This document shows, piece by piece, positions 30,030 to 46,094 of a stretch of 64,000 nt of DNA. Where the stretch lies: positions 832,001 through 896,000 of the forward strand of contig JAHPZA010000006.1 of assembly GCA_019058445.1 (NCBI GenBank), read 5' to 3'. This stretch comes from Promethearchaeota archaeon. GTDB taxonomy: Archaea; Asgardarchaeota; Lokiarchaeia; Sigyniarchaeales; SOKP01. Every line of letters begins with the position of its first letter. The first letter of the stretch is position 1. A program made the position numbers and the translations under genes. The notes beneath the pieces were generated by a model that was not told where the DNA came from, made no database searches, and saw only the letters and a program-made list of their open reading frames with translations.

Positions 30030-31769
30030 TTATTTTCGTAGTACTTTCTTATCAACCTTGCCTACAGCAGTAAGAGGAATCTCTTCCATGATATGAACTT
30101 TTTTGGGAACCTCGTAAGGAGAACACTTCTCTTTGGCGTAATTTACGATATCTTCTTGTAATTTTTCTTCGTTTCCATCATATTCGAATTCGGGATCAAG
30201 TTGAATGTATGCGTTTACAATTTCAGAACCCGGACGGTCGGGATTAGGTTCTCCAATAAGAGCAATCATCCCTATTGCTGGATGTTCGGCTAAAACGTCC
30301 TCGACTTTACTAGAGAATACTTTAAAACCACCAACAATGATCATATCTTTTGTACGATCCACGATTTTTAAGTATCCATCTTCGCCTATGAGTGCTACAT
30401 CTCCCGTGTGCATATATCCATCCGCATCAATAGCTTTTTTGGTTTCTTCAGGTTTGTTGTAATATCCTTGCATGACTAATGGCCCCTTTACACAGATTTC
30501 TCCTGGTTCTCCTATAGGTACCACCTCTCCTGTGTCTGGATCAATTATTTTTAATTCTACGTTCTGAATAGGCATTCCAATCGTACCTAATTTCTTTTCT
30601 CCTAAGGAAGGATTCATTGTTGAGACCGGAGATGTCTCCGTCATCCCATATAACTCTAATAGCTTGCCTTCCCCTATTATACTCTCTAATTCTACTTGAG
30701 ATTCTTTAGGAAACGGAGACGCGGCTGAGATACACGTTCCTAAGTCGGAATGATCCAAATCTTTAAACTTAGGGTTTTTGATTAGCATTTGATATAAGGA
30801 AGGAACGTTAACTAAATTGGTTGGATGGTATTTCTTCATCTCTTTTACGATATGGTTTGTATCTCTCGGGTTTGGAATTTATACTAGAGAGACGCATGTT
30901 CTCTCAATTAATATTTGCGTCCACCCGAAGTATACGGCACTTTCGGCGACCGTTAATCCGGCTATGTGAAACATAGGGAACCCAGAGCATAAAACACCTT
31001 TTCCAAATTCCCATTGAAGCCACTCTGAAATGCTTAAAATATTAGACGCGACATTTCTATGAGTTAACATAGCTCCTTTTGGCGGACCCGTCGTCCCTCC
31101 AGTATATTGAATCCAACCTATATCGTCTGGAGTTAATTTAACGTCTGGTGGATCAGAAGAGAATTCTCCTTTTAATACATCCTTGTGGAAATCTAGTACA
31201 GTTTTTCCCTCTAAAGGTGTGACTTTTCCCTTTGGTATTTTACCTAAAGCTTTACCAAGCACTTGAATTACTTTTGGCAAGAACGACCCGACACTTGTGG
31301 TAATAATAAGTTTGGTTGAACCTAATTTTGAAGCAATTTTTGTAATGTGCCCCGCAAAAATTGCATCTAATGTCACCAACGCTACTTGTTTTCCCCCTGA
31401 ACCTAGATCGTTTAACTGATATTCGATCTGTAGGGCAGACAGAAGGGGCGAGACACCTGAAATTATGCATCCCGCACGTAGAGCGCCAATTAATGAAACT
31501 ATATACTCAATAGTATTTGGTAAATTGATACCAACGACATCTCCCTTTTTAAAGCCATTTGCGACGAGCATATTTGCAAATTTATTGGCCATTTCGTCTA
31601 ATTCTTTGAATGTTATTTCAACGCCTAAATACGCTAACGCGATTTTATCTGGATAATTCTGAAACGCTTTCTTAATCATGTCAACGTAGGTCGTTTCGAA
31701 TTCTTTAGGATCTAAGTCCTTAACGTGCGGATCCCAATTTTTCTTCCAAAATTTATCACTATACGACAT
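30030..31769 (-). CDS. fadD: Long-chain fatty acid-CoA ligase 1; two exons (31769-30909 and 30878-30030), 569 aa after splicing
   Basis: Exon 1 has YTGGTTGPPKG and PMFHIAG; exon 2 has YGMTET, GEICVKGP, TGD, DRTKDMI, GKVDKK; removing 30879-30908 gives continuous GWTQILIPNPRD. Confidence 0.88.
30879..30908 (-). other. Putative 30-nt BHB-type mRNA intron
   Basis: mRNA: AA[AUAU](UA^A)UUGAGAGA-acaugcg-UCUCUCUA[GUAU](AA^A)UU; 4-bp central helix, two 3-nt bulges; excision restores frame; ends in in-frame UAA. Confidence 0.8.
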
Positions 31770-32104
31770 TTTCGCTAGTAACCTTTTTTTTGTTTTAAAA
31801 TTTTTACATTATTTTCTAATTTTTTAAATAAAGCAATTGTTACTAGTTAATATTGATAAAATCAGTTATAAAGTTTTAATTTTAGAGTCTTCAATTTAGA
31901 TTTGATCAATTTTTCTTTTTTTGTAAATATTGGTTGCTTAAAAAATCAAACAAATCAATTTCTAGCATTATATATGTTAGATTATCATTTGAGTTTGAGT
32001 AATTAAAAAATAGAGTTATAAATATCTTTTAGAGTGTATTAATTTATATAATCTAATTCTTAAGTTAATATTAAGATTAAAAATTTTCTTAGGTTAAACT
32101 AACC

Positions 32105-32671
32105 GTGGTTGAATATTATTGTCATTATTGCAATAAGAATGCAAATGCAAATAAAAAGAACTCGCCAATATGCAAAATTTGCGGGTTTTATATGTCATCG
32201 GGGGCTAAGTTAGATGAGGAAATTTTGAGAATCCAACAAGAGAGGATGGGATATTGTAAAAAGTGCGGGAAAGAGGTGTATAGTGTTCCAATAAAAGTAA
32301 TTAAGGATGTAGTACGACATCGGTTTAATCAAGAAATTCATATTGTCGAGGCTGATCGTAAAAATGTGAAAAGAATGAAGCTTACCGATAGCAAATTCTT
32401 ATACGTAACAATTGTAATGATTCCTGTGTTTATCGTGGTATCAATGATTTTGCTGTGGTTAGGGTTGTTGCTAATCGGAGCGTTTACAGTGGCGTTAATT
32501 TTGGATTATCACAACAAAAGCAAGTTAAAAACAGATTTAGTAGCTATACGAGATAATAAGATTAAGAATTTGACCGAAGAGAAGCAAAAAGCGTTAAATG
32601 AGCTTTCGAAAGCTGAGCAAGATTATAAAAATTTATGTAGTGTGTGCGATGGGGGGGTAAAACCTCGTTAG
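32105..32671 (+). CDS. Zn-ribbon membrane protein
   Basis: CHYC, CKIC, CKKC, CSVC plus a two-TM hairpin. Confidence 0.7.
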   Translation: MVEYYCHYCNKNANANKKNSPICKICGFYMSSGAKLDEEILRIQQERMGYCKKCGKEVYSVPIKVIKDVVRHRFNQEIHIVEADRKNVKRMKLTDSKFLYVTIVMIPVFIVVSMILLWLGLLLIGAFTVALILDYHNKSKLKTDLVAIRDNKIKNLTEEKQKALNELSKAEQDYKNLCSVCDGGVKPR

Positions 32672-32923
32672 GCATTCTTATTTTTCTTTCTAACTTTTTT
32701 TATATTAGGTATGATTTATGAATTTGCGATCTAGTGGTTCACTAAATTTAGCTAAAATAAGGATAAAAATAATTGAAAGATAGTAAAATAAGCAGACCTG
32801 AAAAAAGTTAAAGAAACAAGCAAAAAAATAGTAGGATAATTTCACAAAAAAAAGCGAATAATAAATTAAAATTATAAAATTTTTTTTTAAAAATTTACAG
32901 TCTATTTCTTTAATTAACCATAT

Positions 32924-34063
32924 TCAAGAATTATTAATTTTTACATTCCTTTCTCTTAAAATCTTTATTGAACTATTAAAAGCATTAAAATTTTCTAAAT
33001 TTATCCAAAGTCTTTTTAATGAATAAAAATAGGTAAGCGAATCAGGGAGTTTTCTGAAATTATTAAAACTTATATCTAATTCTTCAAGCGAATTAAGATC
33101 TGATATTGAAGCTGGTAAGTTTAGTAAATTGTTTGATCTTAGACCAAGCTTTTTAATTGACACAAGATTTCCCATAGATTCTGGCAATTCTGTCAAATTG
33201 TTAAAATTCAAGATCAAAGTATGAAGTGTTTTGATATTTCCTATGGAACTAGGAAGATATATGAGATTATTCCTATTTAAAAATAACTCTTTTAACTGAC
33301 CAAAATCACCTATAGTATCTGGAAGAGTCTCTAACTGATTCCATCCGAGATTTAAAGATTCTAGTGAATCTAATTCTATAACAATCTCGGGAAATACTTT
33401 AAATTGATTAGAAAATAAATCTAAAGATCTTAATGAACACAGATTTAAAAAAGTATCTGGTATGACACTTAATTGATTCCTTCCTAGTAAAAGCTCTTTA
33501 AGAGAAGTAAGCGAATCTAATCTATCAATTTTTGCCAAATTATCAATATATCTATTTCGCAAATCTAATCTATTATTTAATACAATTCCATAAATTTTCC
33601 CTTTGAATAATACATAATCTAATCCAATTTCGTCCAGTATTGGTTTTAGCTCTCTTGTAGTAAAATTATTATATATTGGATCTTGGAGTAAATAACTTAC
33701 ATCATCAAGAGAATTATTTCTAATTTTGACTATAATCTCATTTTTAAATGTCTTTCTTGCAATCGTATCTCCTTTATTGGAAAGCTCTTCTAATATAGGA
33801 AATGCTAACTCTGATTGTAATAAATTGATATTATACTTGTTATCGACCCATTTTTTAAGTCTCTGATAAAAATATCTAAAAATTTCAACATTTGTGAGAC
33901 TTTCGATTGAAAATATATCAGAATCTATTAATCTAACTAAATCTTCTATAAAAAGTAAACCTTTAATGAATAAATTTATATTATTGCCTACCAACTTAAG
34001 AGTAATTAAATCATTAACTTTTTTACTTATAATACCATTAGACATAATTGAGTCTGATTTCAA
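32924..34063 (-). CDS. Leucine-rich repeat protein with Lokiarchaeia-type N-terminal domain
   Basis: About eight 23-aa LxxLxLxxNxLxxLP repeats; N-domain shared with 38496-39785. Confidence 0.9.
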   Translation of the reverse strand: MKSDSIMSNGIISKKVNDLITLKLVGNNINLFIKGLLFIEDLVRLIDSDIFSIESLTNVEIFRYFYQRLKKWVDNKYNINLLQSELAFPILEELSNKGDTIARKTFKNEIIVKIRNNSLDDVSYLLQDPIYNNFTTRELKPILDEIGLDYVLFKGKIYGIVLNNRLDLRNRYIDNLAKIDRLDSLTSLKELLLGRNQLSVIPDTFLNLCSLRSLDLFSNQFKVFPEIVIELDSLESLNLGWNQLETLPDTIGDFGQLKELFLNRNNLIYLPSSIGNIKTLHTLILNFNNLTELPESMGNLVSIKKLGLRSNNLLNLPASISDLNSLEELDISFNNFRKLPDSLTYFYSLKRLWINLENFNAFNSSIKILRERNVKINNS

Positions 34064-34129
34064 TAATTACAAATTTATTTTAAGACAATAAAATCAATAT
34101 TAATATTTAACTATTTAGCCCATTTTAGG

Positions 34130-37100
34130 TTATAATAACTCATCATTATAAAAGAAATAATAATCATATTCATGATGCCCGAGATAATGATTTTCTAAGA
34201 AATCACGGATTTTTGTTATAGATCTAGTTCTGAACCTTGACCTTAGAACACCTCTTAAATACCCAATCGCCTTGTCTATGACTTTTGGACCATCCCTGTC
34301 CAAACCAAGTTCTTGCGCTTTATCATCAATGAATCCGAGTTCATCAGCTATTTGAACTAAGCTAAGTGGTTTACCGTTATTATCTCTATAACGTATAAGG
34401 TTTTCTAGAAAAGGCTCTAAATAAATATGTCGCATTTTTGTCAATGGTCGATAGACAATAGCTTTAAGCTTATAAGAAATCCTTGTTATAGGATCTATCT
34501 CATATTTAAATGTATCAAAATATCTATTAAAAAGATGAGAAATATCGTCAGCCTCATAAAAGTCGCCTTTGTTCTCCCCTTCTTGCTTTCTAATACCTAA
34601 GGCCTTTAACCTATCAGCAATCTGATCTCTAGTTAACCCCTCCTTTACAAACTCTAATAAATAAGATCTAATAAAAAGATGTGAAGGATTATAGTTAACA
34701 ATATCAAGGCAAGTAGCGACACATTGCGCAACTATAGTTCTTTTTCCAAGTAATGAATCACCTCTCCCTAGATCATCAAATCTAAAGAAATGATTAGAAA
34801 TTTCTCTATCTGTCTTTCCTTGAGCACGTAGGGATTCTAAAATGGGTTTTATGTATATTTTCATTTGATCTTCATAAGACTTTTCAAACCACTGATAAAC
34901 TCTATTTTGAAGAGTTGTATATGATACTCCTATAATGGCGGCAGCATGTGTTAATGGCACCCCTCGCTTCATTAAAGAAATAACAAGATCTAAATCAATA
35001 TTTTTAAAATTCTCTGAAGGACTATCGATTAAATCCCCCACAATTTTATTATATTCTAAGTTGATATTTAAGTCATAACCTTTTTGATTTATCTTTCTAT
35101 TATAATAAATTGTCCAAAACTCTTCTGATTGCGTACCTTTTAGCGAACCTTCTTGTACATCAAGCAGCTTCATTACAAATACATCATTTGGATTTTTCCC
35201 GGAAGCTATAACCTCCCTCACATCATCATAAAATTTACCATTTCTCCCATGACGAGCTTTAGACAGATATTTAGCCCATCTTTGAGGTGGCGCTTCCTTA
35301 GTCTGACCTATTCGAACAAGCCCAGTTTCTTTATTAATGATAATATAGATATAAACTGGAGTCTTGCCTTTCTTTAAAATTGCATCAAAGATAGCCTTTA
35401 TCTGAGCTTCAGAATTTTTATTCCAAACACTATTCTTTAGGTTAATATTTTTAAATCGATTAGCATACTCGGACTTAATATTTTTAATAAACCATTTATA
35501 GAACTTTTGCGGGGACAGTTTAGATAATTTATCACCTCTTTTTTTTATTATCTCATCCCAAGTTTTATAATCATTTGCATCGATTTTGGAGTTCATCTTT
35601 ATATTAGAGCCGGAATCACCCATCGGACCAACATCAAGTGAAAATTTTATACCCGTCCTTTTAATAGCCTCAATAAGACCATACCTCGCAACAAGATAGT
35701 CCCATATTGAATCCGCTATTTTTAAAGGCAATAAAGGTTTTACAGAATCAGGGATTGCATACGAGTCATCTTTATAATTAAACCAGCGCAGCCTACTCCA
35801 TTTACTTGATTGCTCATCGTGCGCTTCATCCAGCTCGGGATAAGCAGCTAACATATTGGCTGTCATTAAGGTCAGCGCAGAAGCCTCATCTCCCGAAAAT
35901 TCTTCAATAACTTGCTGCACTCGGAATCGACCGATAAGCGCACCAAACGCTTTTTTTACAGGGACTTTATTAGCCCAATACGCAGAAACGGCTCCGGTAG
36001 AGATGGTACCTAAAGACGTAAATGCTGCAATCCCCGCCCCTAACACAGGAACCGCTAACACAGTAATGATTGTGGCTGCCGCTTTGGCAATAGTTCCTTT
36101 TGATGATGATTTGGCATCCTCTCTGGTCTGCTCGTCCTGCTCGGCAGTCTCTTTCATGGTATTACTACCGGTAGCGTCAATCTGTTGTTGGGCGTGCCCA
36201 TCTTGCTTAACATTCTGGGACCCTCCAAAAATACCGAATTTCGTCTCCCGACCTGTGGATACCAGAGTGGTGGCAGCCACTACCATATATTCATCGCCTC
36301 CCCATTGGCGAACAAGCCCGGCGGTCGCATCTTCAATATAGGGGTCGATAAAGACTTCTTCAAACGGCTCTGAAGCCACACTCCATAAAGTTAAGCCTTT
36401 CAGCCCTGCCGCACCGCCGATACCCGCGGTCAAGAGGGTGCTTACCACTGTAATGACGGTGGTATATGCGATTTCATCCAGTTTAGCTTGCGTCTCGGTG
36501 GCAATTTGGAATTGATAATAATATTCTAAAATGGCAGCCTGTACTGCTTGCATAGTGGCAATTTGCTCCATTTCTTCGCTGGTGAAGTTTCCCTTATCAT
36601 TAATGGAACGATATTTTTCGATATGAATTTCAAAAATCATATATGCAGTGATCAAGTGACCATATCGCTCCCAATAATCTTCATCCCAGGATTGTTCAAT
36701 CGCTTCCAATCGTCGATCTACTTTTTCGCAAAACTCTTGATATCTATCCGGGCTTAAGGTGAGCTCTCCAGAAGATGGATCAAATGTATAATCATCACTG
36801 TCCAGCGTTGCCACGAAAACTTTCTTAAAATTATCATTCTCATCATCATCATTGAACGATGACACCAAATACACGTCAATATCCTTAATTCCTTCTTGCA
36901 AAGTATCTTTGGGAACGATCTTCAAATCTTCTCCATCGCTTTTCTCCCAGATTTTATAAATCTTATCGTAAGTATAACTGCCTCCTATGGCTGAAATCTC
37001 ACTATACTCATCGCTAGATACAATGATCGGATAATCTTCATAAAACTCAGGAAGTGGTGAAGTGGGCTCTTCATTGGCAAACAACATAACCGGATAATAA

Positions 37101-38482
37101 TCATGCATGTAAGGAATAACCTTGTTTAAATCCCTATCTTTCTTGGCATCGGTAGTCTCGGCAACTGCCTGTTCTAAAAAGGCAATCGAGTTGTGCGAGT
37201 ATAAAATGGGATCTTGATATTCATAAAAGATATCATCTTCTTGCATATATTGGATTACTCGGGGATCATCAAAATCAGAATAGGCAATATAGCTTCTTGA
37301 TTGCATGCTATAATCCAAGTTCATTTTCTTGTAATTGGTAATAAATGGATCCCACCAATTTTCAGTGTCCCAATCAATCGAATCTAATCCAAGCATATTG
37401 GTCTTCCCTTCGCCCAAGTCTCCGTTCGCAGGAGCTAATACTATTTGCCCCTCATAGGTGTATTTCTCAGTCTCAAATACTACCGGCGCATAAATTCCGT
37501 TGGTAGTGCAAGTAAATGCGGTGGTCATCGTCTCGCCAAACCACTCATCAGACCACCATTTTCTGGACAAGGTTTTCTTTCCCCGATAATGCTCCGAATC
37601 ATGATACGTATAGGCTTTAATGTAATTTTCTTGCTCAGCAACATCCATCCACCCTTTCATGGTAGTGAGCATGGCATATACAGCCGCACCTCCTATAGGA
37701 GAGACATAAGTAGATATAACAGCCGAAATTAAAAGCGATTCAGTTTGCCACATAATATCGGCTTGGATTTGCTCGCAGGACAGGGACTCTAAGAAAGTAT
37801 TAAACGTAATCTCTTCCGCTTCTCTAATAAGTTGAGAGGCTGTACCCTCCCATTGTATCTTCCAGAGGTCATAAAGCGCGTCCGAAAAGGTAGGCTCCAG
37901 ATAATACCCCCCGAAGTCATCTTCGTGGTGGAACCCAATCAGTTCATTGTAAATGAGGTTTTTTACATTGAACACCCCTGCCTCTGTAGAATATCTATTT
38001 CTGCGAACTTGCCTTTGCACGATATGCTTACCGTGAGGGTTAAAATAGGCATCGCTATAATAATCGAATCCAACACCAATCATATCTCCAGAATCATCGG
38101 CAATAAATATTGTCTCGAAAAAGCCGTCACTATCGCCATCGTAATAGTAATAAGCCCCATCCGTCTTAGAAGGGTATTTACCCATATTATTATCGTAGTA
38201 TACCCCATCTTTAGGTGCTACCTTAATTGTATTTAATACAATATTCTCCTCATTTAGTCCGGACCAACTGCTATAACTGCTTGTTAAATCAAAAGTCTTA
38301 TTGGCGGTTAAAATATTTAATGTGGAAAATTCTCCATCAGCAAATTCCATAACCGTTTCATATAAGGCAGGCACATTATCATTATCATGAACCAGCGAAA
38401 GAAGCGGCTCTTTATTGGATATCTCAACCTCTACATCATTATAGCTATCATAATCATCTAAGTCATTGATAATAGTCTGCAC
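34130..38482 (-). CDS. Giant (probably 5'-truncated) polymorphic-toxin-like protein with C-terminal GIY-YIG nuclease and HTH-like domains
   Basis: Acidic N-part with YDGDSDGFFET, Gly/Ala-rich hydrophobic helices, then VYIYIIINKETGLVRIGQT...R and HTH-like segments. Confidence 0.7.
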   Translation of the reverse strand: MQTIINDLDDYDSYNDVEVEISNKEPLLSLVHDNDNVPALYETVMEFADGEFSTLNILTANKTFDLTSSYSSWSGLNEENIVLNTIKVAPKDGVYYDNNMGKYPSKTDGAYYYYDGDSDGFFETIFIADDSGDMIGVGFDYYSDAYFNPHGKHIVQRQVRRNRYSTEAGVFNVKNLIYNELIGFHHEDDFGGYYLEPTFSDALYDLWKIQWEGTASQLIREAEEITFNTFLESLSCEQIQADIMWQTESLLISAVISTYVSPIGGAAVYAMLTTMKGWMDVAEQENYIKAYTYHDSEHYRGKKTLSRKWWSDEWFGETMTTAFTCTTNGIYAPVVFETEKYTYEGQIVLAPANGDLGEGKTNMLGLDSIDWDTENWWDPFITNYKKMNLDYSMQSRSYIAYSDFDDPRVIQYMQEDDIFYEYQDPILYSHNSIAFLEQAVAETTDAKKDRDLNKVIPYMHDYYPVMLFANEEPTSPLPEFYEDYPIIVSSDEYSEISAIGGSYTYDKIYKIWEKSDGEDLKIVPKDTLQEGIKDIDVYLVSSFNDDDENDNFKKVFVATLDSDDYTFDPSSGELTLSPDRYQEFCEKVDRRLEAIEQSWDEDYWERYGHLITAYMIFEIHIEKYRSINDKGNFTSEEMEQIATMQAVQAAILEYYYQFQIATETQAKLDEIAYTTVITVVSTLLTAGIGGAAGLKGLTLWSVASEPFEEVFIDPYIEDATAGLVRQWGGDEYMVVAATTLVSTGRETKFGIFGGSQNVKQDGHAQQQIDATGSNTMKETAEQDEQTREDAKSSSKGTIAKAAATIITVLAVPVLGAGIAAFTSLGTISTGAVSAYWANKVPVKKAFGALIGRFRVQQVIEEFSGDEASALTLMTANMLAAYPELDEAHDEQSSKWSRLRWFNYKDDSYAIPDSVKPLLPLKIADSIWDYLVARYGLIEAIKRTGIKFSLDVGPMGDSGSNIKMNSKIDANDYKTWDEIIKKRGDKLSKLSPQKFYKWFIKNIKSEYANRFKNINLKNSVWNKNSEAQIKAIFDAILKKGKTPVYIYIIINKETGLVRIGQTKEAPPQRWAKYLSKARHGRNGKFYDDVREVIASGKNPNDVFVMKLLDVQEGSLKGTQSEEFWTIYYNRKINQKGYDLNINLEYNKIVGDLIDSPSENFKNIDLDLVISLMKRGVPLTHAAAIIGVSYTTLQNRVYQWFEKSYEDQMKIYIKPILESLRAQGKTDREISNHFFRFDDLGRGDSLLGKRTIVAQCVATCLDIVNYNPSHLFIRSYLLEFVKEGLTRDQIADRLKALGIRKQEGENKGDFYEADDISHLFNRYFDTFKYEIDPITRISYKLKAIVYRPLTKMRHIYLEPFLENLIRYRDNNGKPLSLVQIADELGFIDDKAQELGLDRDGPKVIDKAIGYLRGVLRSRFRTRSITKIRDFLENHYLGHHEYDYYFFYNDELL

Positions 38483-38495
38483 GTAATATTCTGGA

Positions 38496-39785
38496 TTATA
38501 CAGATCTGCAATTTCGTTTGGGAATATCCCATACTCGTATTGTTTTATGTCCTACTGATGCTATTATATTCTGTCCATTTGGGCTAAAATAGATTCGAGT
38601 AAAATCTGTTTTAGTTGACAATGTTTTGTAGATGGTTTTGGATGCAATATCCATGAGTACTACATCTCCTGTTTTTGTGGCAAATACAACATTTTTTCCT
38701 TCAGGAGATACATCAAACGGCACTAAATCATGAAAGGAAGTAAGTTTATCGAATAATTTTCCTGATTTTAAATCCCAAATAAAAAGCGCGCTATACGCAA
38801 TATCACCATCCACTAAACTTGCCAATAAGTAAGTGTTATCCCCCGAGAATTTAAGGCATCTCGCAGATGCGTGAGGAGTTTCACATTGAAAGATCACTTT
38901 TTTTTGGTTTGTATCCCATACGGCTATCCCTCCATTGTAAAATCCTAATCCTAAAAGAGTCCCATCTTGCGAAATTCCGATCTCATCTACTTTATCTTTA
39001 AAAGTATGTAAGTAATGCGCATACCCTCCAGAAAGTGTGTAATAAAATAATTCGTTATTTTCTGTGCCATAATATATCTTCTTTCCATCAGAGCTCACTT
39101 CAAAACCCTCTTCTGAAGCATTTTCTAAGAAGAACTCATCAAATGGTATATATATTTTAGTTTCTAAAGCATCATGCTGCATTTTTTTCAGAATTGTTTT
39201 TGCATGAGTGCTCTTTAGAATATTTTTTATAGCATTTTTAATGAAATTGGGATAATCAATGTGGGAAAAATCCATCTCTTCCAATACACTTTCCATCTCT
39301 TCTGCCGAAAGATATTCTAAATAATCGCATGCTAATAAATAATTCATCACGTTTTCATACCCTACGGCAAACCGCTTGGCAATCTCCTCTTTAAACACTT
39401 TTTTCGCGATGGGATCTCCGACGCTCTGAAGCTTTTTTAGCAAGCTAAACGCTAAATTCCTATGTAATAAATTAGTATTGTAGTTGTGCTCCGCCCACGC
39501 TTGGAGATTCGAACAATGCCCCCAAAATTCCACTCCTGGCTGAATCCCATGGTCGCTCGTTTTTCCGGTCTCAAGTGTACCGTCCAAATTTTCTGAAGCC
39601 TGGTCTATAGAGCTATATTCGTTGACTTTTACAAGATCCTCTGTGGGAATATTCATGAGGAGATATTTGCAATGCCCATAATAGCGCCCTTTAATATATA
39701 TATTGGTCTTTTTATTCTCCAGTTTTAAGGTAATATACTCATTAACCACAAATGGAGAGATATTTTCGGATTCTTTCACACTCAC
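38496..39785 (-). CDS. WD40-repeat protein with Lokiarchaeia-type N-terminal domain (possibly 3'-truncated)
   Basis: EFWGHCSNLQAW...LLHRNLAF...GDPIAKKVFKEEI N-domain; repeats SQDG..L....IAVWD, FSGD...FIWD, SPEG, FSPNG...IRVWD. Confidence 0.8.
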   Translation of the reverse strand: MSVKESENISPFVVNEYITLKLENKKTNIYIKGRYYGHCKYLLMNIPTEDLVKVNEYSSIDQASENLDGTLETGKTSDHGIQPGVEFWGHCSNLQAWAEHNYNTNLLHRNLAFSLLKKLQSVGDPIAKKVFKEEIAKRFAVGYENVMNYLLACDYLEYLSAEEMESVLEEMDFSHIDYPNFIKNAIKNILKSTHAKTILKKMQHDALETKIYIPFDEFFLENASEEGFEVSSDGKKIYYGTENNELFYYTLSGGYAHYLHTFKDKVDEIGISQDGTLLGLGFYNGGIAVWDTNQKKVIFQCETPHASARCLKFSGDNTYLLASLVDGDIAYSALFIWDLKSGKLFDKLTSFHDLVPFDVSPEGKNVVFATKTGDVVLMDIASKTIYKTLSTKTDFTRIYFSPNGQNIIASVGHKTIRVWDIPKRNCRSV

Positions 39786-39981
39786 GGTACATTGCCTTTT
39801 GATACTGAGAAATTAGTCTTGAAAGTTAATATCTACAAAAATATTTAAAGGAAAATTTTTCTGAAAATACTTAATGGATAGGGCATAATGATACTTTTTC
39901 ATTTAAATCATAACAGTCCTCATAGTAAATATTAATAGTATTTTTCATTACTTTATACAGATTTGAGAAAAAAGACAAAAT

Positions 39982-42303
39982 ATGAAGATTTTAGCATGGA
40001 GTGATTGGAGAATCCAATCTTTAGAGACATTAATGGGCATTATACAAAAGGAAAATCCCGACCTACTACTCTATGCGGGAGATGATTTAGATCGATTAAT
40101 TGGTGCAAGCAGTAAGATTTATTTTAAAACGTATAATCATTTTATAGAGGTAGATATAAATAAATTAGATGATCTGTACCAAAATGACTCATTTGCGAAA
40201 AATCCTAAAATTAAGGAAATTATCCTAGAATTTCAAAATAATAATTTAAATCTCATTGAGCAGCTTGATATTCCTTTCATATACGTAAATGGAAATGATG
40301 ATTATATCTTAAAGATTAATGGAGAGAATTATCTTAAAATTTCTAAAAGCTTCAGAATAAATAAGGAATGGTATGATATATGCGAAAATATTGAGGGAAG
40401 AGTAGATTTTATCCCACACGACGAGTATAAGGAGTTAAGTGAAAATATCCCCTATATAAAAAAGGTTTTAAGAGACCAAAAGGAATATAAAATCTTATCA
40501 AGTTCTCCAGAAATTAAAAAATATCTTCACAATGAGGAGGTTTATGAGGTATATAGTATTTATGGGCAAGATGATATTTTTTATGCGATTGAAAAAGGGC
40601 AGAACCACATTGACCCTTTTTTGTGGTATACAAAAGATAATGGAATATATGTGAAAATATCCCCCACCTATGGAAAAACCGAGTTCAATACTCGAAATGA
40701 ATCAATATCCATATTTGGAAGCGGTTGCTCTATTGGAAGGGAAAGTCAAATTATTTTTCCTCCCAACGAATATGCTGATATTTACCTCTCTCATTTACCA
40801 CCATTAGGGAAATTAGATTTATCAAGTAGATTTGGAATCAACCATATTGGCTCAAAAGCACTTTTAGAGGCAATACATACCTATCACCCTAAATTTGTGA
40901 TATGCGGACACTCTCATATGTGGGGCGGAGAAGCAGAACACGTCAATGGCACGGTAGTTGTAAATGTAAGTTCTCATGACAGTCCACGATTTACCACCAC
41001 AGCAAATTACGTTACCATTACTACTAATGATTGGTCTTACCAAATTAAAAAAGAAAGTATGCTCCCAGAAAATACCCTATCTCTCCTGAAAATAAGGGGG
41101 TTTAATACTTTAAGAAAAAAATTGCGCGAAAAAGGAGATATTTACATTCAAAATGAAATATATCATAAATATCATAAAAACTTAGAAGGATTAGTGGGAG
41201 TTAATAGGGAGAGGGGCTTTTATATAGATGTAGGATCTTTAGAGAGAAAGGAGCCTGCAGAACAAATAAAAATACAGAAATTCTTAAAGGAAGAACTCAG
41301 CCTTGATATATCAATATATCGGCAAGAGTATGAGAAAGCTAGTTCATTATACGCCAAATTGTATTTTGCTCGCATTTTTGATGATGCGTTTGAAGTCTTA
41401 AATGAGGTGGAGAATTTTGGAATTTCTACTTTACGAATGAAAGAAAGGATATTAGCCTTGAGTAAAAGAACCCCAAAGGTACAAAAAAGTATCACATTTA
41501 ATCCTTATGATAATTATTTTGTTGATGTTGAAACCGGAAATTTTCAAGCAGATGAACCGGGTAGATTATGGTTGATAGGGATCGCAAGTGGACGCCAGAA
41601 ACAGATTAAACAGTTTGTTTATCCTCAAGAGTTTCCAAAGTTCCTTAAGTATCTGAAAGATAATGCTATTGACACCTTAGTCTCGTGGTCACGATATGAT
41701 CATCAAGTATTGAGACCAATCCTAAAGTCCCACAAAATAAAAATGAAATATTATGATGCCTTACAAAGGACTGCCAATTGTTTAAGTTGGCATACCTATT
41801 CATTACATGATCTTTATAACGCCCTTTTCCCAGATAAGAAGACTCCTCCAGAGCTCATTTCTGGAGAAAGAGCTGGATTGTATGCTGATCATTTATTGAT
41901 TGATAACTCTTCGTGTCCTCACTGCTCAAATAAGAAAGATCAAATCATCGAGGAGATCAAAAAACGAAACAAATTAGATGTATTACAAATGATAGAGATT
42001 TGTGAGCATTTATATAAAGAAGAGATTTATGAGTGTCCCAACTGTGGTTTTACCACCAAATATAAAAAAGGTTTGATACGACATATAAAAAATAAGGTGT
42101 GTAAAAAGGAGGAGCGTGAAGTAAAGAAGAAAAGTCCCCCTCTTCTTTCCATTAATAAAAAGGACATAGAAAATCTGGCACATTTTAATGAATACGGAGT
42201 GTTTGTGTGCAATTGTGGAAAAACATATTTATCGGGCTCGCATAGGTATATCTTAGATCATATCCAATATTGCCCCCAATTTATCTTTAAAGTAAAGAAG
42301 TAG
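39982..42303 (+). CDS. Calcineurin-like metallophosphoesterase fused to RNase H-like (YprB-type) domain and zinc fingers
   Basis: MKILAWSD, YAGDD, VNGNDD, SHLPP, CGHSH; later FVDVETG...LWLIG...YD...D; CPHC, CPNC..H, CNCG..H..C. Confidence 0.75.
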   Translation: MKILAWSDWRIQSLETLMGIIQKENPDLLLYAGDDLDRLIGASSKIYFKTYNHFIEVDINKLDDLYQNDSFAKNPKIKEIILEFQNNNLNLIEQLDIPFIYVNGNDDYILKINGENYLKISKSFRINKEWYDICENIEGRVDFIPHDEYKELSENIPYIKKVLRDQKEYKILSSSPEIKKYLHNEEVYEVYSIYGQDDIFYAIEKGQNHIDPFLWYTKDNGIYVKISPTYGKTEFNTRNESISIFGSGCSIGRESQIIFPPNEYADIYLSHLPPLGKLDLSSRFGINHIGSKALLEAIHTYHPKFVICGHSHMWGGEAEHVNGTVVVNVSSHDSPRFTTTANYVTITTNDWSYQIKKESMLPENTLSLLKIRGFNTLRKKLREKGDIYIQNEIYHKYHKNLEGLVGVNRERGFYIDVGSLERKEPAEQIKIQKFLKEELSLDISIYRQEYEKASSLYAKLYFARIFDDAFEVLNEVENFGISTLRMKERILALSKRTPKVQKSITFNPYDNYFVDVETGNFQADEPGRLWLIGIASGRQKQIKQFVYPQEFPKFLKYLKDNAIDTLVSWSRYDHQVLRPILKSHKIKMKYYDALQRTANCLSWHTYSLHDLYNALFPDKKTPPELISGERAGLYADHLLIDNSSCPHCSNKKDQIIEEIKKRNKLDVLQMIEICEHLYKEEIYECPNCGFTTKYKKGLIRHIKNKVCKKEEREVKKKSPPLLSINKKDIENLAHFNEYGVFVCNCGKTYLSGSHRYILDHIQYCPQFIFKVKK

Positions 42304-42410
42304 TTTTACAGATATCTATCTAAATTTTTATAGACTAGGATAATTTTCGATTTTTTCTTTATAAATAGGCATCAGTAATTTACTCCAAAGAAGAATTTAA
42401 GGTAATGTAA

Positions 42411-42782
42411 ATGGAAAGACAATTTACCCTCGTAACCTATACATTAGTACTTCTGCTCATGATAGGATTAGTAGTTAATTTAGCATTACTTATTGTAATA
42501 TTATTAGTCGATACCTTTTTAGTTTCTGATGCTATTACCGTGTCCGCTATAATCCTAATTACATTATCAATGGTTGGGATTTTCTCTAAGCAAAAATGGG
42601 GTGCCACACTTGCTATTTCTAAATCTATATTTGATATTATACTAAGACTGTGGTTTTTCTCCCTTGGCTATACCGACACATTAATTTTTATACTGCTTAC
42701 CCTCGTCCTTGCAATAAAAGAATATCAGCATATAGATACCTATTGGCAATCGGTTACATCTAAATCTATATCCTATCCCTAA
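42411..42782 (+). CDS. Small four-TM membrane protein
   Basis: Four hydrophobic segments in 123 aa. Confidence 0.65.
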   Translation: MERQFTLVTYTLVLLLMIGLVVNLALLIVILLVDTFLVSDAITVSAIILITLSMVGIFSKQKWGATLAISKSIFDIILRLWFFSLGYTDTLIFILLTLVLAIKEYQHIDTYWQSVTSKSISYP

Positions 42783-42857
42783 GTCCCTTTTTTTTCATAC
42801 TAATCTGAAAATTCATTAATCTACACATATTTAAATTCGAATGTTTCATAATGTATC

Positions 42858-43007
42858 ATGGCAACAAAAGCATCATAACTCCGGTATCACCCTGGATTTT
42901 TGTCTTTTGGTTAGTGTATGGAAATACACTCTGATTTTGCCCTCCTCCCCCTTGTATTGTTTTGACCTCTGTGTGAGGTCCCGATACCAGGAGTTTTTTG
43001 TTGCCAT
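42858..43007 (+). ncRNA. Candidate 150-nt structured non-coding RNA (or MITE-like element)
   Basis: Closing stems of 12+6+6 bp, two internal hairpins (one with a GGAA tetraloop), TTTAAA box ~25 nt upstream, T-tracts downstream. Confidence 0.6.
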
Positions 43008-43131
43008 TTTTTCAGTATTTTTTTTACTACTACTATCTTTTCTGTTAAACTATGATAAAAATCCAAATAACTTTTTATAATAGGAATACTATGGAAAAGT
43101 TTAAGGAATACTAGATGAGGAAAATAGAGCA

Positions 43132-43623
43132 ATGTCCGACCAAAAATCACCTCTTAAATCTATCATTCGCAGCTACATACTTGAGATCGGTGGGCTTTTA
43201 AAAGAAGAATTAAAGGAACCTCGATTTGAATTTGGATTTCGGTTCTTATATCCCAATGAAAGAGGCAGACTTCTGCTTATTGCCCAACCAAAAAATAAAT
43301 CTGTGATTGAAATTTCACAAGGTACCCCCCTCTCTACAGAGCACCGACAAGGATTTATGGCTTTACCTGACAGAGATAAAAAAAATTTCGTGAAGAATTT
43401 ACAAAAAATCTTATTTCGTTTGGAAGTAGATTATTCCTATGAGTTTTCTAAGCATTATACCATCGTGCTTATAGATAAACTATTTTTAGAGAATGATGCC
43501 ATTTCTATTAATGAGTTATTCCGTTCCGTGCGTAAAATATAGTGTAGCACCATGAACATTATATTTTTCATCCAGGAGTTCTTTTCTGAAGAATTCGATC
43601 CTACCACTTTTACTGTAGGATGA
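43132..43623 (+). pseudogene. DUF2299-like protein with in-frame amber codon at 43540-43542
   Basis: Frame continues after TAG as CSTMNIIFFIQEFFSEEFDPTTFTVG to TGA at 43621-43623; family call tentative. Confidence 0.5.
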
Positions 43624-43754
43624 AAAAAAGAATTAAGGAAAGAGAAAGAAATTCATAACCTAAGTTTTCATTATATTTCTATTTTATCATAAATCCAAAT
43701 TGCACACGAGACTCCATATTAATATGCTAAACATTAAAAGGAGATGATCCCCAT

Positions 43755-44021
43755 ATGAGCATAATCCTCAAGCTGAAAATTAAGAGAGCAAAACTCACCG
43801 AGAAATACTTTATATTCGGTTTTAACGATGGATCATTCATAGGATTTCATAATGAGAGTTTGAAGTTAATCGCATACAAACACAATGGAGAGAAATGGGA
43901 ACCAATCCGAAAGGCAGATACCACATTTGATGCTCATATTAACGCCATCATATCATTCCTCGTTGAGAGAGAAGCCCTCAAAAAATTAACCATATATCAA
44001 ACCCTCCTAAGCAGGTGTTAA
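43755..44021 (+). CDS. Small hypothetical protein
   Basis: 88-aa ORF preceded by AGGAGATG SD-like motif. Confidence 0.6.
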   Translation: MSIILKLKIKRAKLTEKYFIFGFNDGSFIGFHNESLKLIAYKHNGEKWEPIRKADTTFDAHINAIISFLVEREALKKLTIYQTLLSRC

Positions 44022-44025
44022 GACC

Positions 44026-44208
44026 ATGTGCGAACTCTTAGAAATGGCAATTCTAAAGGAAGTGGCATTAAACGTATTTGCTCCGTAACTTGAGGCACTC
44101 CAGCAAATGCCCGTGCTTGAAGTCAATGAAATCGAAGAGATTCTCAGGTACGCAGATTATACTGATTACAAGACATTTCAAGATCTCCGTACCTTATTTC
44201 ACTTCTAA
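44026..44208 (+). pseudogene. Small ORF interrupted by in-frame TAA (44086-44088)
   Basis: AGGTG SD; MCELLEMAILKEVALNVFAP*LEALQQMPVLEVNEIEEILRYADYTDYKTFQDLRTLFHF*. Confidence 0.5.
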
Positions 44209-44340
44209 ATTTTTATTTCTATTTTTTTTATTTTCTTTTATTCATTAATATCTTTAATTAAAAAAATAAAAATTAGAATATTAATTAAAAAAAAATGGAA
44301 ATTATATTGATATTTTACGTTATACTATGGAATACTGCTT

Positions 44341-46094
44341 TTATTTTCGTAAAAGTTTCTTGTCAACCTTTCCAACAGCAGTCAATGGGAGCTCTTCTAT
44401 GATTTTAATTTTCTTCGGGACTTCATATGGAGCACATTGCTCCTTTGCAAATACAATGATACTTTCTTTTAACGCCTCTTCATTTCCGTCATATTCATAG
44501 TTAGGGTCTAGCTGAATATAGGCATTTACAATTTCAGAGCCCGGGCGATCGGGATTCGGTTCACCTATTAGTGCCATACTTCCAATCGCAGGATGTTTGG
44601 TTAATGTGTCTTCTACCTTAGATGAGAAAACTTTGAAACCCCCTACAATTATCATATCCTTGGTACGGTCTACAATACGTATATATCCATCCTCATCCAT
44701 CATTCCCACATCACCGCTGTGCATATATCCATCCGCATCAATCGCTTTTTTGGTTTCTTCAGGTTTGTTGTAATAACCCTGCATGACTAATGGACCTTTT
44801 ACGCAAATCTCTCCAGCTTCTCCCAAGGGTACTGCTTTTCCAGTTTCTGGATCAACAATCTTTAAGTCAACATTCTGAATAGGCATTCCAACTGTACCTA
44901 ATTTTCTTTCTCCTTTCGAAGGATTCATTGTTGCAACGGGGGACAGTTCGGTCATTCCGTATAATTCCAATAATTTTCCCTTTCCTACTATACTTTCTAA
45001 TTGTATCTGAGATTCGATGGGGAAAGGAGATGCTGCAGAAATACAGACTTCTAAAGTTGAGTGATCCAACCTTTTGAATTTTTTGAAATTTATTAGAATC
45101 TGATATAGGGAAGGTACATTCACAAGTCCAGAAGGTTTGTACTGTTTAATTTGATTACATATGGACAAAGCGTTTCGTGGGTCCTGCATTAGACGAATCG
45201 TCTTAATTAATCAGGCACGAGACACTGGGTCCAACCCAGATAAATAAAACTCTCACAAACAGTTAAACCTGCAATATGGAAGAAAGGAAAACCTGATAAT
45301 GCTGTTCCCACTCCCCATTCCCAATTAAGCCATGACCGAATAGACATAATGTTAGAAATTGTATTTCTATGGCTTATCATTGCTCCTTTGGGAGGTCCTG
45401 TGGTGCCTCCAGTATATTGAATAAATGCAATATTGTCGGGAGAAATCTCTACATTCGGCGGATCAGTTGGATATTTTGCAAAAACGTCATCATGAATATC
45501 TAATACAGTTTTTCCCTCTAAAGGTGTGACTTCTCCCGAAGGAATTTCCTGAACAGCTTTAATTTTTTCCTGTTGTTCTTTTGGAAAGATCCCAATAACG
45601 CTGGTGGTTAAGACAAGTTTTAATTGAGGGCATTTCGAAGCGATTTTAACCAATCTTCCCGCAAAAATTGCATCTAAAGTTATCAATGCAACATTTTTTC
45701 CACCCTCTCCTAAGTCGTTTATTTGGTATTGCATTTGAATCTCCGACATGAGAGGAGAAACTCCTGAAAGGATACATCCTGCTCTCAATATACCTACGAG
45801 GGCAATAACATATTCTGGAATATTAGGTAAATTTACTGCTACAACATCCCCTTTTTTAAATCCATGGTCAATTAATGCATTTGCTAACGAATTTGCGTAT
45901 TTATCCAGCTGCCCATATGTAACTTCTAAACCTTGAAATGCTAAAGCAACTTTATCGGGAACTTCTTTAAATGTCCGTTCTATTCCTTTTACATATGTGG
46001 TGTCGAATTCCTTTGGATCGATATCGTGAACATCAGAATCCCAATTTTTTTTCCAAAAACGGCTAGCATAAATTTCTTCTGCCATATTTATCAC
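44341..46094 (-). CDS. fadD: Long-chain fatty acid-CoA ligase 2; two exons (46094-45210 and 45180-44341), ~574 aa after splicing
   Basis: Same motifs as ligase 1; removing 45181-45209 gives continuous GWTQCLVPDPRNA. Confidence 0.88.
45181..45209 (-). other. Putative 29-nt BHB-type mRNA intron
   Basis: mRNA: UCGUG[CCUG](AU^U)AAUUAAGACG-auu-CGUCUAAUG[CAGG](AC^C)CACGA; perfect 5-bp outer and 4-bp central helices; excision repairs both stop and frameshift. Confidence 0.85.

What the first reader, a model, noticed from the sequence alone, without database searches (positions are those of the whole stretch)
30030..46094. Candidate BHB-spliced mRNA introns in two Asgard acyl-CoA ligase genes
Seen: both fadD paralogues are broken at nearly the same point by short inserts of unrelated sequence (30 and 29 nt). 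Each folds with its exon flanks into outer helix / 3-nt bulge / 4-bp helix / 3-nt bulge / inner hairpin. Established: the archaeal splicing endonuclease EndA cuts such BHB motifs after the second nucleotide of each bulge and RtcB ligates the exons; the well-known protein-coding precedent is crenarchaeal cbf5. Applying that rule unchanged gives the in-frame junction in both genes, and the restored peptides align with each other without gaps (GWTQILIPNPR vs GWTQCLVPDPR). Inference: this archaeon splices metabolic mRNAs with tRNA-type machinery, so many apparent split genes in Asgard genomes may be intron-containing. This would bear on the origins of eukaryotic mRNA splicing, including IRE1/RtcB-type unconventional splicing. 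I cannot check whether it is already reported.
Basis: partly seen in the sequence, partly recalled or inferred. Interest (0 to 1): 0.96.

Follow-up and report, generated by a model that had tools for sequence, protein, structure and literature searches.

The report
tRNA-type mini-introns in two Asgard ligase genes
Two neighbouring acyl-CoA ligase genes of a Loki-type Asgard archaeon are each interrupted by a 29-30-base hairpin shaped like the introns archaea cut out of tRNAs, and comparison with relatives shows these inserts are conserved, functional elements that must be removed from the mRNA, something published so far only for one gene (cbf5) in another archaeal phylum.

Summary

- **The inserts are real DNA.** 30879-30908 (30 nt, in frame, TAA) and 45181-45209 (29 nt, frameshifting) appear in independent contigs from two samples.
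- **The junctions fit.** Removing the inserts gives exactly the sequence of intact orthologues in sister species.
- **Gene 2 folds as a near-canonical bulge-helix-bulge (BHB).** It has a 5-bp exon-exon helix, bulge ACC, a 4-bp helix and bulge AUU.
- **Gene 1 is a relaxed BHB.** The motif is not the minimum-energy fold, and the outer helix is only two A-U pairs.
- **The gene 1 intron is under selection.** A relative carries the same intron with 3 changes in 30 nt, against 59% divergence at four-fold sites. Both stem changes keep pairing.
- **The gene 2 site recurs.** Another lineage has an unrelated 30-nt intron at the same site with the same architecture and a double change in the central helix.
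- **The genes are not decaying.** Downstream halves have dN/dS of about 0.03-0.04.
- **The machinery is present.** EndA and RtcB are both encoded.
- **It is not confined to these genes.** An EF-2 paralogue and an ACS-like gene in this genome carry similar inserts.

Earlier notes of this scan report the same kind of insert in at least 54 genomes. I found no paper describing it in Asgard archaea.

The parts
30030..31769 (-). Gene 1: FadD-like acyl-CoA ligase. Exon 1 is 30909-31769, the intron 30879-30908 and exon 2 30030-30878. The spliced product is 569 aa.
   Evidence: ORFs and translation; Pfam N and C parts; intact orthologues of 573-598 aa with GWxQILIPNPRD.
30879..30908 (-). Gene 1 intron: 30 nt, in frame, with a TAA at its 3' end and an inner hairpin GAGAGA/UCUCUC.
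   Evidence: The same intron in L042/L043 has 3 changes. It is conserved against a 59% four-fold-site divergence.
30876..30916 (-). Gene 1 relaxed BHB. The outer pairs AA (30916-30915) pair with UU (30877-30876). The central helix is AUAU (30914-30911) with GUAU (30884-30881). The bulges are UAA (30910-30908) and AAA (30880-30878). The inner helix is 30907-30885.
   Evidence: Pair-by-pair annotation; constrained fold -18.2 against MFE -20.4 kcal/mol.
30865..30929 (-). Gene 1 long-range exon-exon helix: UUCGGGU (30929-30923) pairs with ACCCGAG (30871-30865), and GGA with UCC. It clamps the two splice sites together.
   Evidence: MFE. These flanks are identical in L042. The corresponding codons in intron-less G002/G008 do not pair.
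44341..46094 (-). Gene 2: FadD-like acyl-CoA ligase paralogue. Exon 1 is 45210-46094, the intron 45181-45209 and exon 2 44341-45180. The spliced product is about 574 aa.
   Evidence: intact orthologues with GWTQCLVPDPRNALS.
45181..45209 (-). Gene 2 intron: 29 nt, frameshifting, with a UAA directly after the 5' cut and an inner hairpin AGACG/CGUCU. An in-frame ATG lies 9 nt before exon 2.
45175..45220 (-). Gene 2 near-canonical BHB. The outer helix is UCGUG (45220-45216) with CACGA (45179-45175). The central helix is CCUG (45215-45212) with CAGG (45186-45183). The bulges are AUU (45211-45209) and ACC (45182-45180). The inner helix is 45207-45188, behind one A-G mismatch.
   Evidence: MFE and centroid; pair list; constrained fold within 0.6 kcal/mol of the MFE; same architecture in L044.

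Best explanation
Both inserts are bulge-helix-bulge (BHB) mini-introns in the pre-mRNAs of two paralogous acyl-CoA ligase genes.

In the transcript, exon 1 pairs with exon 2 to form the outer helix. The last four exon-1 nucleotides before the 5' bulge pair with the 3' end of the intron to form the 4-bp central helix. This leaves two 3-nt bulges on opposite strands.

The archaeal splicing endonuclease EndA cuts after the second nucleotide of each bulge. The RNA ligase RtcB then joins the exons and probably circularises the intron. The result is an mRNA encoding an uninterrupted 569- or 574-aa ligase. Unspliced mRNA ends at a stop inside or directly after the 5' end of the intron, giving only the N-terminal half.

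What is shown:
- The inserts are in the DNA.
- The junctions are exact.
- The folds have the BHB geometry.
- The intron and its exon flanks are under selection.
- The genome encodes EndA and RtcB.

What is inferred: that EndA and RtcB are the enzymes that act here, and that splicing takes place at all.
For: 1. The BHB cut rule, applied unchanged, gives junctions identical to intron-less orthologues: G002, G008, G003 and about 160 class-level genomes, 79 metagenome loci, and P0121 at 95-97.5% identity.

2. Geometry. Gene 2 has a 5-bp outer helix, a 3-nt bulge, a 4-bp helix and a 3-nt bulge. Gene 1 has the same register in relaxed form. The chance frequency per register is 0.0014.

3. Selection on the gene 1 intron. 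G000 and L042 differ at 65 of 110 four-fold sites but at only 3 of 30 intron positions (P = 3e-8, or 3.5e-4 using the third-position rate). One change is in the loop. The other two turn U-U into G.U and G-C into G.U. The 21 nt before and 18 nt after the intron are identical.

4. Gene 2 site in another lineage. L044/L046 carry an unrelated 30-nt intron at the same site with the same architecture. In the central helix, U-A becomes G.U by changes on both strands. The two intron-bearing alleles share the helix-forming codons TGT CTC GTG CCK GAT|CCA CGM. The more closely related intron-less G008 and G002 have TGC CTT GTA CCA GAC|CCW AGA, which cannot form the helix.

5. The C-terminal halves are intact, with dN/dS 0.03-0.04, no worse than the N halves.

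6. EndA (C9:770595-770843) and RtcB (C1:114713-116020) are encoded. Asgard EndA is reported as the broad-specificity (alpha-beta)2 type with the L1 loop (PMC5829648).

7. Same genome. An EF-2 paralogue has a textbook 30-nt BHB insert with a TAG. An ACS-like gene has four inserts at conserved motifs, one with a good BHB. 20 of 23 tRNA genes called by aragorn carry introns.
Against: - There is no RNA evidence of any kind for this organism.
- Gene 1's BHB is not the minimum-energy fold, and its outer helix is two A-U pairs.
- L044's BHB is 1.6 kcal/mol above its MFE.
- Only one EndA-family gene was detected, even at E <= 10, so the expected beta subunit was not seen. The genome is 92.6% complete.
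- My genome-wide BHB-plus-ORF scan showed no overall excess over a mirror-geometry decoy. The only excess was for short introns with long helices, 29 against 14.
- The three gene 1 intron changes are also compatible with a translated peptide (one replacement, two silent), although a conserved TAA argues against translation.
Confidence: 0.8

Rival explanations
1. Translational bypassing (hopping). The mRNA keeps the insert. The ribosome takes off at the last exon-1 codon and lands on a matching codon at the end of the insert, as in phage T4 gene 60 or the 'byp' elements of Magnusiomyces mitochondria (from my own knowledge).
For: Matching or synonymous codons sit at both ends: ATT..ATT in gene 1, GAT..GAC in gene 2 with a TAA directly after the take-off codon, and GAT..GAT in L044. 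All inserts contain a hairpin.
Against: In L042 the take-off codon is ATG and the landing codon ATT, so the match is not conserved. The boundary repeats follow from the near-palindromic central helix plus bulge. Bypassing gives no reason for exon 1 to exon 2 helices, for 3-nt bulges spaced by exactly 4 bp, or for compensatory change in that helix.
Confidence: 0.05
2. RNA-level removal by something other than EndA/RtcB, for example an unknown nuclease or ligase or a self-processing element. The BHB-like shape would then be incidental or only part of the signal.
For: Gene 1's motif is relaxed. Two of the four ACS-like inserts gave no strict 4-bp central helix, and one is weak. Only one EndA-family gene was found.
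Against: The canonical cut rule predicts the exact junction in gene 1, gene 2, L042, L044, EF-2 and ACS insert 1. No Rfam family matches the window. Broad-specificity EndA is known to cut relaxed motifs (PMC5829648).
Confidence: 0.07
3. Gene fission. Each gene now makes two separate polypeptides that assemble without being joined.
For: The gene 2 insert holds an in-frame ATG 9 nt before exon 2, so ORF 44341-45189 starts there.
Against: Gene 1 and L044 have no start codon at the junction. Their first ATG lies 13 or more codons into conserved sequence. The break lies inside the core of the adenylation domain. Fission does not explain the RNA structure or the conservation of the insert.
Confidence: 0.03
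4. Dead genes. The inserts are inactivating insertions, or scars of a mobile element, in pseudogenes.
For: Close relatives lack the inserts, including P0121 at 95-97.5% identity. The inserts contain stops.
Against: The gene 1 intron predates the G000-L042 split, where four-fold sites are 59% different. Even so, both halves are intact, dN/dS is 0.03-0.05, and the insert itself is conserved. The inserts are not a repeat family. An EF-2 paralogue and an ACS-like gene carry the same kind of insert.
Confidence: 0.03

Closest known systems
BHB intron in the cbf5 pre-mRNA of Crenarchaeota (Desulfurococcales, Sulfolobales; Watanabe 2002, Yoshinari 2006, Yokobori 2009 = PMC2738675)
   Same: A short intron inside a protein-coding sequence. 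It is bounded by a BHB-like fold built from exon and intron and is recognised by EndA. Its distribution among relatives is patchy, with gain and loss. The host has a hetero-oligomeric, broad-specificity EndA.
   Different: A different phylum (Asgard) and different genes (metabolic acyl-CoA ligases). Two paralogues are hit 9 nt apart, and further genes in the same genome are also hit, so this is not a single-gene curiosity. Splicing is not shown experimentally here.
Archaeal tRNA and rRNA BHB introns, including the heavily interrupted tRNA genes of Asgard archaea (Marck and Grosjean 2003; bioRxiv 10.64898/2026.10.13.758758)
   Same: The same motif geometry and cut rule, similar intron lengths, and repeated lineage-specific gains. 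This genome's tRNA genes are also intron-rich.
   Different: The host RNA is an mRNA. The exon half of the motif therefore has to be built from codons, which shows up as constrained synonymous sites.
Unconventional HAC1/XBP1 mRNA splicing (IRE1 cleavage, RtcB or Trl1 ligation) in eukaryotes
   Same: Removal of a short intron from an mRNA without a spliceosome, by an endonuclease acting on paired stem-loops followed by tRNA-ligase-type joining. The removal changes the reading frame.
   Different: IRE1 is unrelated to EndA, and its substrate is two 7-nt loops rather than a BHB. That system is stress-regulated. No regulation is shown here, and no evolutionary link is demonstrated.
Programmed translational bypassing (T4 gene 60; Magnusiomyces mitochondrial byps)
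   Same: Short hairpin-containing inserts in coding sequence that are absent from the protein.
   Different: Those are skipped by the ribosome and need matched take-off and landing codons. Here the match is not conserved, and the structure is that of an endonuclease substrate.

Membership tests
Archaeal BHB (EndA-type) intron | [quoted passage not shown] | tested here: met
   Gene 2 has CCUG/CAGG with bulges AUU and ACC. The helix and the ACC bulge are in the MFE and centroid, and AUU is unpaired in the centroid. Gene 1 has AUAU/GUAU (one G.U) with bulges UAA and AAA. This is only a near-optimal fold, 2.2 kcal/mol above the MFE.
Archaeal BHB (EndA-type) intron | Flanking helices h (exon-exon) and h' (intron) of at least 2 bp adjoining the bulges | tested here: inconclusive
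   Gene 2 has h = 5 bp. Its h' starts with an A-G mismatch followed by 4 A-U pairs. Gene 1 has h = 2 A-U pairs plus a distant 7-bp clamp. Its h' is U-A, a U-U mismatch, then 6 bp. Both fit relaxed motifs rather than the strict hBHBh'.
Archaeal BHB (EndA-type) intron | Cutting after the second nucleotide of each bulge yields the functional, uninterrupted product | tested here: met
   The junctions equal the intron-less orthologue sequences, without a gap.
Archaeal BHB (EndA-type) intron | The structure, rather than the sequence, is conserved among homologous introns | tested here: met
   The stem changes in L042 keep pairing. L044 has an unrelated interior, the same architecture and a double change in the central helix. 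The intron is conserved below the neutral rate. Only two alleles per intron were available.
Archaeal BHB (EndA-type) intron | The host encodes the splicing endonuclease and the RtcB ligase | tested here: met
   PF01974 at 68 bits and PF01139 at 574 bits. A second EndA subunit was not detected.
Archaeal BHB (EndA-type) intron | The intron is absent from mature RNA, and is cleaved by EndA in vitro | not testable with these tools
   No RNA run holds this DNA.
Translational bypass element | Matched take-off and landing codons, conserved among alleles | tested here: not met
   L042 has ATG against ATT.

The most novel reading that the evidence does not exclude
Loki-type Asgard archaea may carry a genome-wide, evolutionarily dynamic population of EndA/RtcB-spliced mini-introns in mRNAs. 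These would be gained and lost within genera and would recur at preferred sites. Here, two unrelated introns lie 9 nt apart in paralogues, and the same site is occupied by an unrelated intron in another lineage. They would force synonymous sites of the flanking codons to build the splice motif. Insertion might occur by reverse splicing at BHB-prone mRNA sites, and intron retention could gate expression.
Probability: 0.45. Interest if true: 0.9.

Novelty: new member of a known kind. Interest (0 to 1): 0.72.

Why it matters
Protein-coding genes of archaea are treated as uninterrupted, and annotation pipelines call such genes as two fragments or as pseudogenes.

If ordinary metabolic and translation genes in the closest archaeal relatives of eukaryotes need endonuclease/ligase splicing of their mRNA, three things follow:
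- Asgard gene catalogues and metabolic reconstructions are systematically wrong at these loci.
- mRNA splicing by the tRNA machinery is far more common in archaea than the single cbf5 case suggests.
- The question of how intron-bearing mRNAs were tolerated before the spliceosome becomes experimentally approachable. The 71-73-nt substrates and the enzymes are defined here.

The exon-side constraint on synonymous codons also gives a simple sequence-based handle for dating gains and losses.

Tried and rejected
- **RNA evidence.** No RNA holder was listed for the stretch. Only DNA contigs could be laid.
- **Repeat or mobile element.** The inserts have no other copy in the genome and no significant similarity to each other or to the L044, EF-2 or ACS inserts.
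- **Rfam.** Nothing in the window reaches the gathering score.
- **Genome-wide scan.** The scan looked for BHB geometry plus ORF joining. A loose version timed out. The full version gave as many hits with a mirror-geometry decoy as with the true geometry (4137 against 4114). A two-fold excess appeared only for introns of 40 nt or less with long helices. A paralogue-based filter was noisy: it recovered gene 1, gene 2 and EF-2 plus many false hits. So I cannot give a count of introns in this genome.
- **Earlier notes.** Quick region scans did not relocate the thioredoxin, S26e and thiolase inserts reported in earlier notes. These remain unverified by me.
- **G033.** Its orthologue breaks at the same codon, but the C half lies 630 kb away in a 63%-complete single-record genome. 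This looks like a join of contigs, not an intron.
- **G133 and G135.** Their '1 TAA' flags are stops upstream of the start codon.
- **L045, L047, L048.** These are GC-rich contigs with simple frameshifts or chimeric ends and are not introns.
- **Wider searches.** 79 JGI metagenome orthologues and about 160 class-level genomes yielded no further intron-bearing allele.
- **P0121 and P0125.** DNA for these intron-less near-relatives could not be fetched. Whether P0121 is a DNA or an RNA contig is unknown.


Full report
**What is there.** The window is C6:832001-896000 of a 4.6-Mb, 31% G+C, 10-contig genome. Its closest protein relatives are labelled Promethearchaeota or Lokiarchaeia.

Two AMP-binding (FadD-like) genes lie on the minus strand, and each is called as two ORFs. 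Pfam places profile positions about 3-240 in the upstream ORF and about 250-384 plus AMP-binding_C in the downstream ORF.
- In gene 1 the break is a 30-nt in-frame insert ending in TAA. The unspliced reading is GWTQILI-ERTCVSLV*-IPNPR.
- In gene 2 the break is a 29-nt insert that shifts the frame and begins with TAA.

The genome has about 30 AMP-binding genes. Only these two and one ACS-like gene are interrupted.

**The inserts are real DNA.** Logan contigs of the source sample cover both sites without a gap or difference. A 343-nt contig from a second sample of the same study covers the gene 1 insert. Related inserts also appear in independent assemblies from JGI, SRA and ENA.

**The junctions are exact.**
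- Same-genus orthologues (G002, G008, G003; 80-90% identity) have open frames of 550-598 aa. At the break they read GW(P/S/T)QILIPNPRDTNH and GWTQCLVPDPRNALS, which are exactly the products predicted by deleting the inserts.
- About 160 genomes of the class and 79 metagenome loci are all intact at this site.
- An intron-less protein, P0121, is 95% (N half) and 97.5% (C half) identical to spliced gene 1.

**Fold.** The canonical arrangement, from 5' to 3', is: outer helix, 4-nt strand of the central helix, 3-nt bulge, inner hairpin, second strand of the central helix, 3-nt bulge, outer helix. The cut falls after the second nucleotide of each bulge. I checked this rule on the tRNA 37/38 geometry from my own knowledge, and in this genome on the EF-2 insert (below).

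*Gene 2* fits closely:
- Outer helix UCGUG/CACGA, extended to 10 of 11 pairs.
- Central helix CCUG/CAGG, with bulges AUU and ACC.
- Inner helix behind one A-G mismatch.

The outer helix, the ACC bulge and the central helix appear in both the MFE and the centroid. The AUU bulge is unpaired in the centroid. The fully constrained BHB costs 0.6 kcal/mol, and the region has z = -5.0 against shuffles.

*Gene 1* is relaxed:
- The adjoining outer helix is two A-U pairs, backed by a distant 7+3-bp exon-exon clamp.
- The inner helix has a U-U mismatch.
- The motif lies 2.2 kcal/mol above the MFE.

In this genome a random 29-30-nt cut pair meets the minimal criteria with frequency 0.0014.

**Comparative evidence for function, gene 1.** L042/L043 carry the gene 1 intron at the same place, and their N half is 91% identical to G000's. 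The two lineages differ at 65 of 110 four-fold sites and at 40% of the third positions of conserved codons. They differ at only 3 of 30 intron positions (P = 3e-8 and 3.5e-4). The 21 nt before and 18 nt after the intron are identical.

The three intron changes are one in the loop, one that turns the U-U mismatch into G.U, and one that turns G-C into G.U. The intron is therefore old relative to synonymous turnover and is itself under constraint.

**Comparative evidence for function, gene 2.** L044/L046 have a 30-nt intron at the gene 2 site. Their gene is sister to G000 gene 2 plus G008 in the tree. The intron interior is unrelated. The architecture is the same, including the purine-purine mismatch at the start of the inner helix. 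The central helix is CCGG/CUGG instead of CCUG/CAGG, so one pair changed on both strands.

The intron-bearing alleles share the codons that build the helices (TGT CTC GTG CCK GAT | CCA CGM). The more closely related intron-less G008 and G002 use TGC CTT GTA CCA GAC | CCW AGA, which cannot pair.

**The genes are not decaying.** The downstream halves have dN/dS of 0.03-0.04 against orthologues, no worse than the upstream halves.

**Machinery and context.**
- One EndA catalytic-family gene and RtcB are present. A second EndA subunit was not detected.
- The literature assigns Asgard archaea the (alpha-beta)2 EndA with the L1 loop, which gives broad substrate range (PMC5829648).
- 20 of the 23 tRNA genes aragorn finds have introns. 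This agrees with a recent preprint on heavily interrupted Asgard tRNA genes, which does not mention mRNA.
- One EF-2 paralogue has a textbook BHB insert at C10:684116-684145: ACAG au|a, a 9-bp hairpin, then CUGU ag|u, carrying a TAG. Its spliced peptide aligns without a gap to the other paralogue.
- An ACS-like gene (C10:621054-623188) has four inserts of 32, 60, 30 and 30 nt at WYCTA|DIGW, VPTYP|..RFW, GEPIN|PEAW and DTYWQ|TETGG. The first has a good BHB, the fourth a weak one, and two gave none under strict criteria.

**Rivals.**
- *Translational bypass.* Repeated codons at the insert ends suggest it, but the match is broken in L042. It also explains none of the exon-exon pairing or the bulge spacing.
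- *Gene fission.* An ATG in the gene 2 insert suggests it, but there is no counterpart in gene 1 or L044.
- *Pseudogenes.* These are excluded by the age and conservation of the intron together with the intact, constrained halves.
- *Removal by an enzyme other than EndA.* This cannot be excluded without biochemistry.

**History.** Gains and losses are frequent.
- The gene 1 intron is in G000 and L042 but not in the closer P0121, nor in G002, G003 or G008.
- The gene 2 site is occupied in G000 and L044 but not in G008 or G002.
- The two G000 introns are 9 nt apart and unrelated.
- In relatives the two paralogues are adjacent. In G000 they are separated by 12.5 kb encoding LRR, WD40, metallophosphoesterase and GIY-YIG-containing proteins.

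**Novelty.** Seven full-text searches found no description of BHB introns in Asgard protein-coding genes. The documented case inside a coding sequence is crenarchaeal cbf5 (PMC2738675).

Earlier notes of this scan report the same kind of insert in at least 54 genomes. Two follow-ups on Jordarchaeum claim RNA-derived contigs that lack the intron. I did not test those.

The mechanism is a known kind. The host lineage, the genes, and the number of genes affected are new.

Noticed in passing
G000 C10:684116-684145 (minus strand; L035): One of two EF-2 paralogues carries a canonical 30-nt BHB insert with an in-frame TAG in the switch I region: ACAG au|a, a 9-bp hairpin, then CUGU ag|u.
   Followed up: yes
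G000 C10:621054-623188 (minus strand): An ACS-like gene has four short inserts (32, 60, 30 and 30 nt) at conserved motifs. The first (622214-622245) has a good BHB. Two gave no strict central helix. The 60-nt insert has no stop.
   Followed up: partly
G000 C6:165873-165902 (minus) and C9:775862-775891 (minus): Two further 30-nt hairpin inserts. One is in a gene with a QLYHGG motif resembling old-yellow-enzyme family proteins, with a good BHB. The other is in a gene I judged Sir2-like from its sequence (LHG..C..C), which was picked up only by the decoy geometry.
   Followed up: no
window 31770-44340: In relatives (G002, G008, L162-L164) the two ligase paralogues are adjacent. In G000 they are separated by 12.5 kb encoding an LRR protein, a 1450-aa protein with a weak GIY-YIG match, a WD40 protein, a metallophosphoesterase and DUF2299.
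   Followed up: partly
L021 (G033:C1:2193758-2197609): The orthologue ends at ...GWSQILIVDP, the same codon as the gene 2 site, and continues with unrelated GC-rich sequence. A C-terminal fragment lies 630 kb away. This is probably a join between contigs. An assembly break at a polymorphic intron site is conceivable.
   Followed up: partly
whole genome G000: aragorn finds only 23 tRNA genes, 20 of them with introns of 7-118 nt. Many tRNA genes are probably missed because of multiple or non-canonical introns.
   Followed up: no
window 45181-45189: The gene 2 intron contains ATG CAG GAC in the exon-2 frame, so gene callers start the downstream ORF inside the intron.
   Followed up: yes
P0121 and P0125 (JGI sample 3300042731): Two intron-less alleles, 92-95% (N half) and about 98% (C half) identical to gene 1. 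P0121 sits on a 1749-nt contig that spans just the gene. The sample type (DNA or RNA) is unknown and the DNA could not be fetched.
   Followed up: partly
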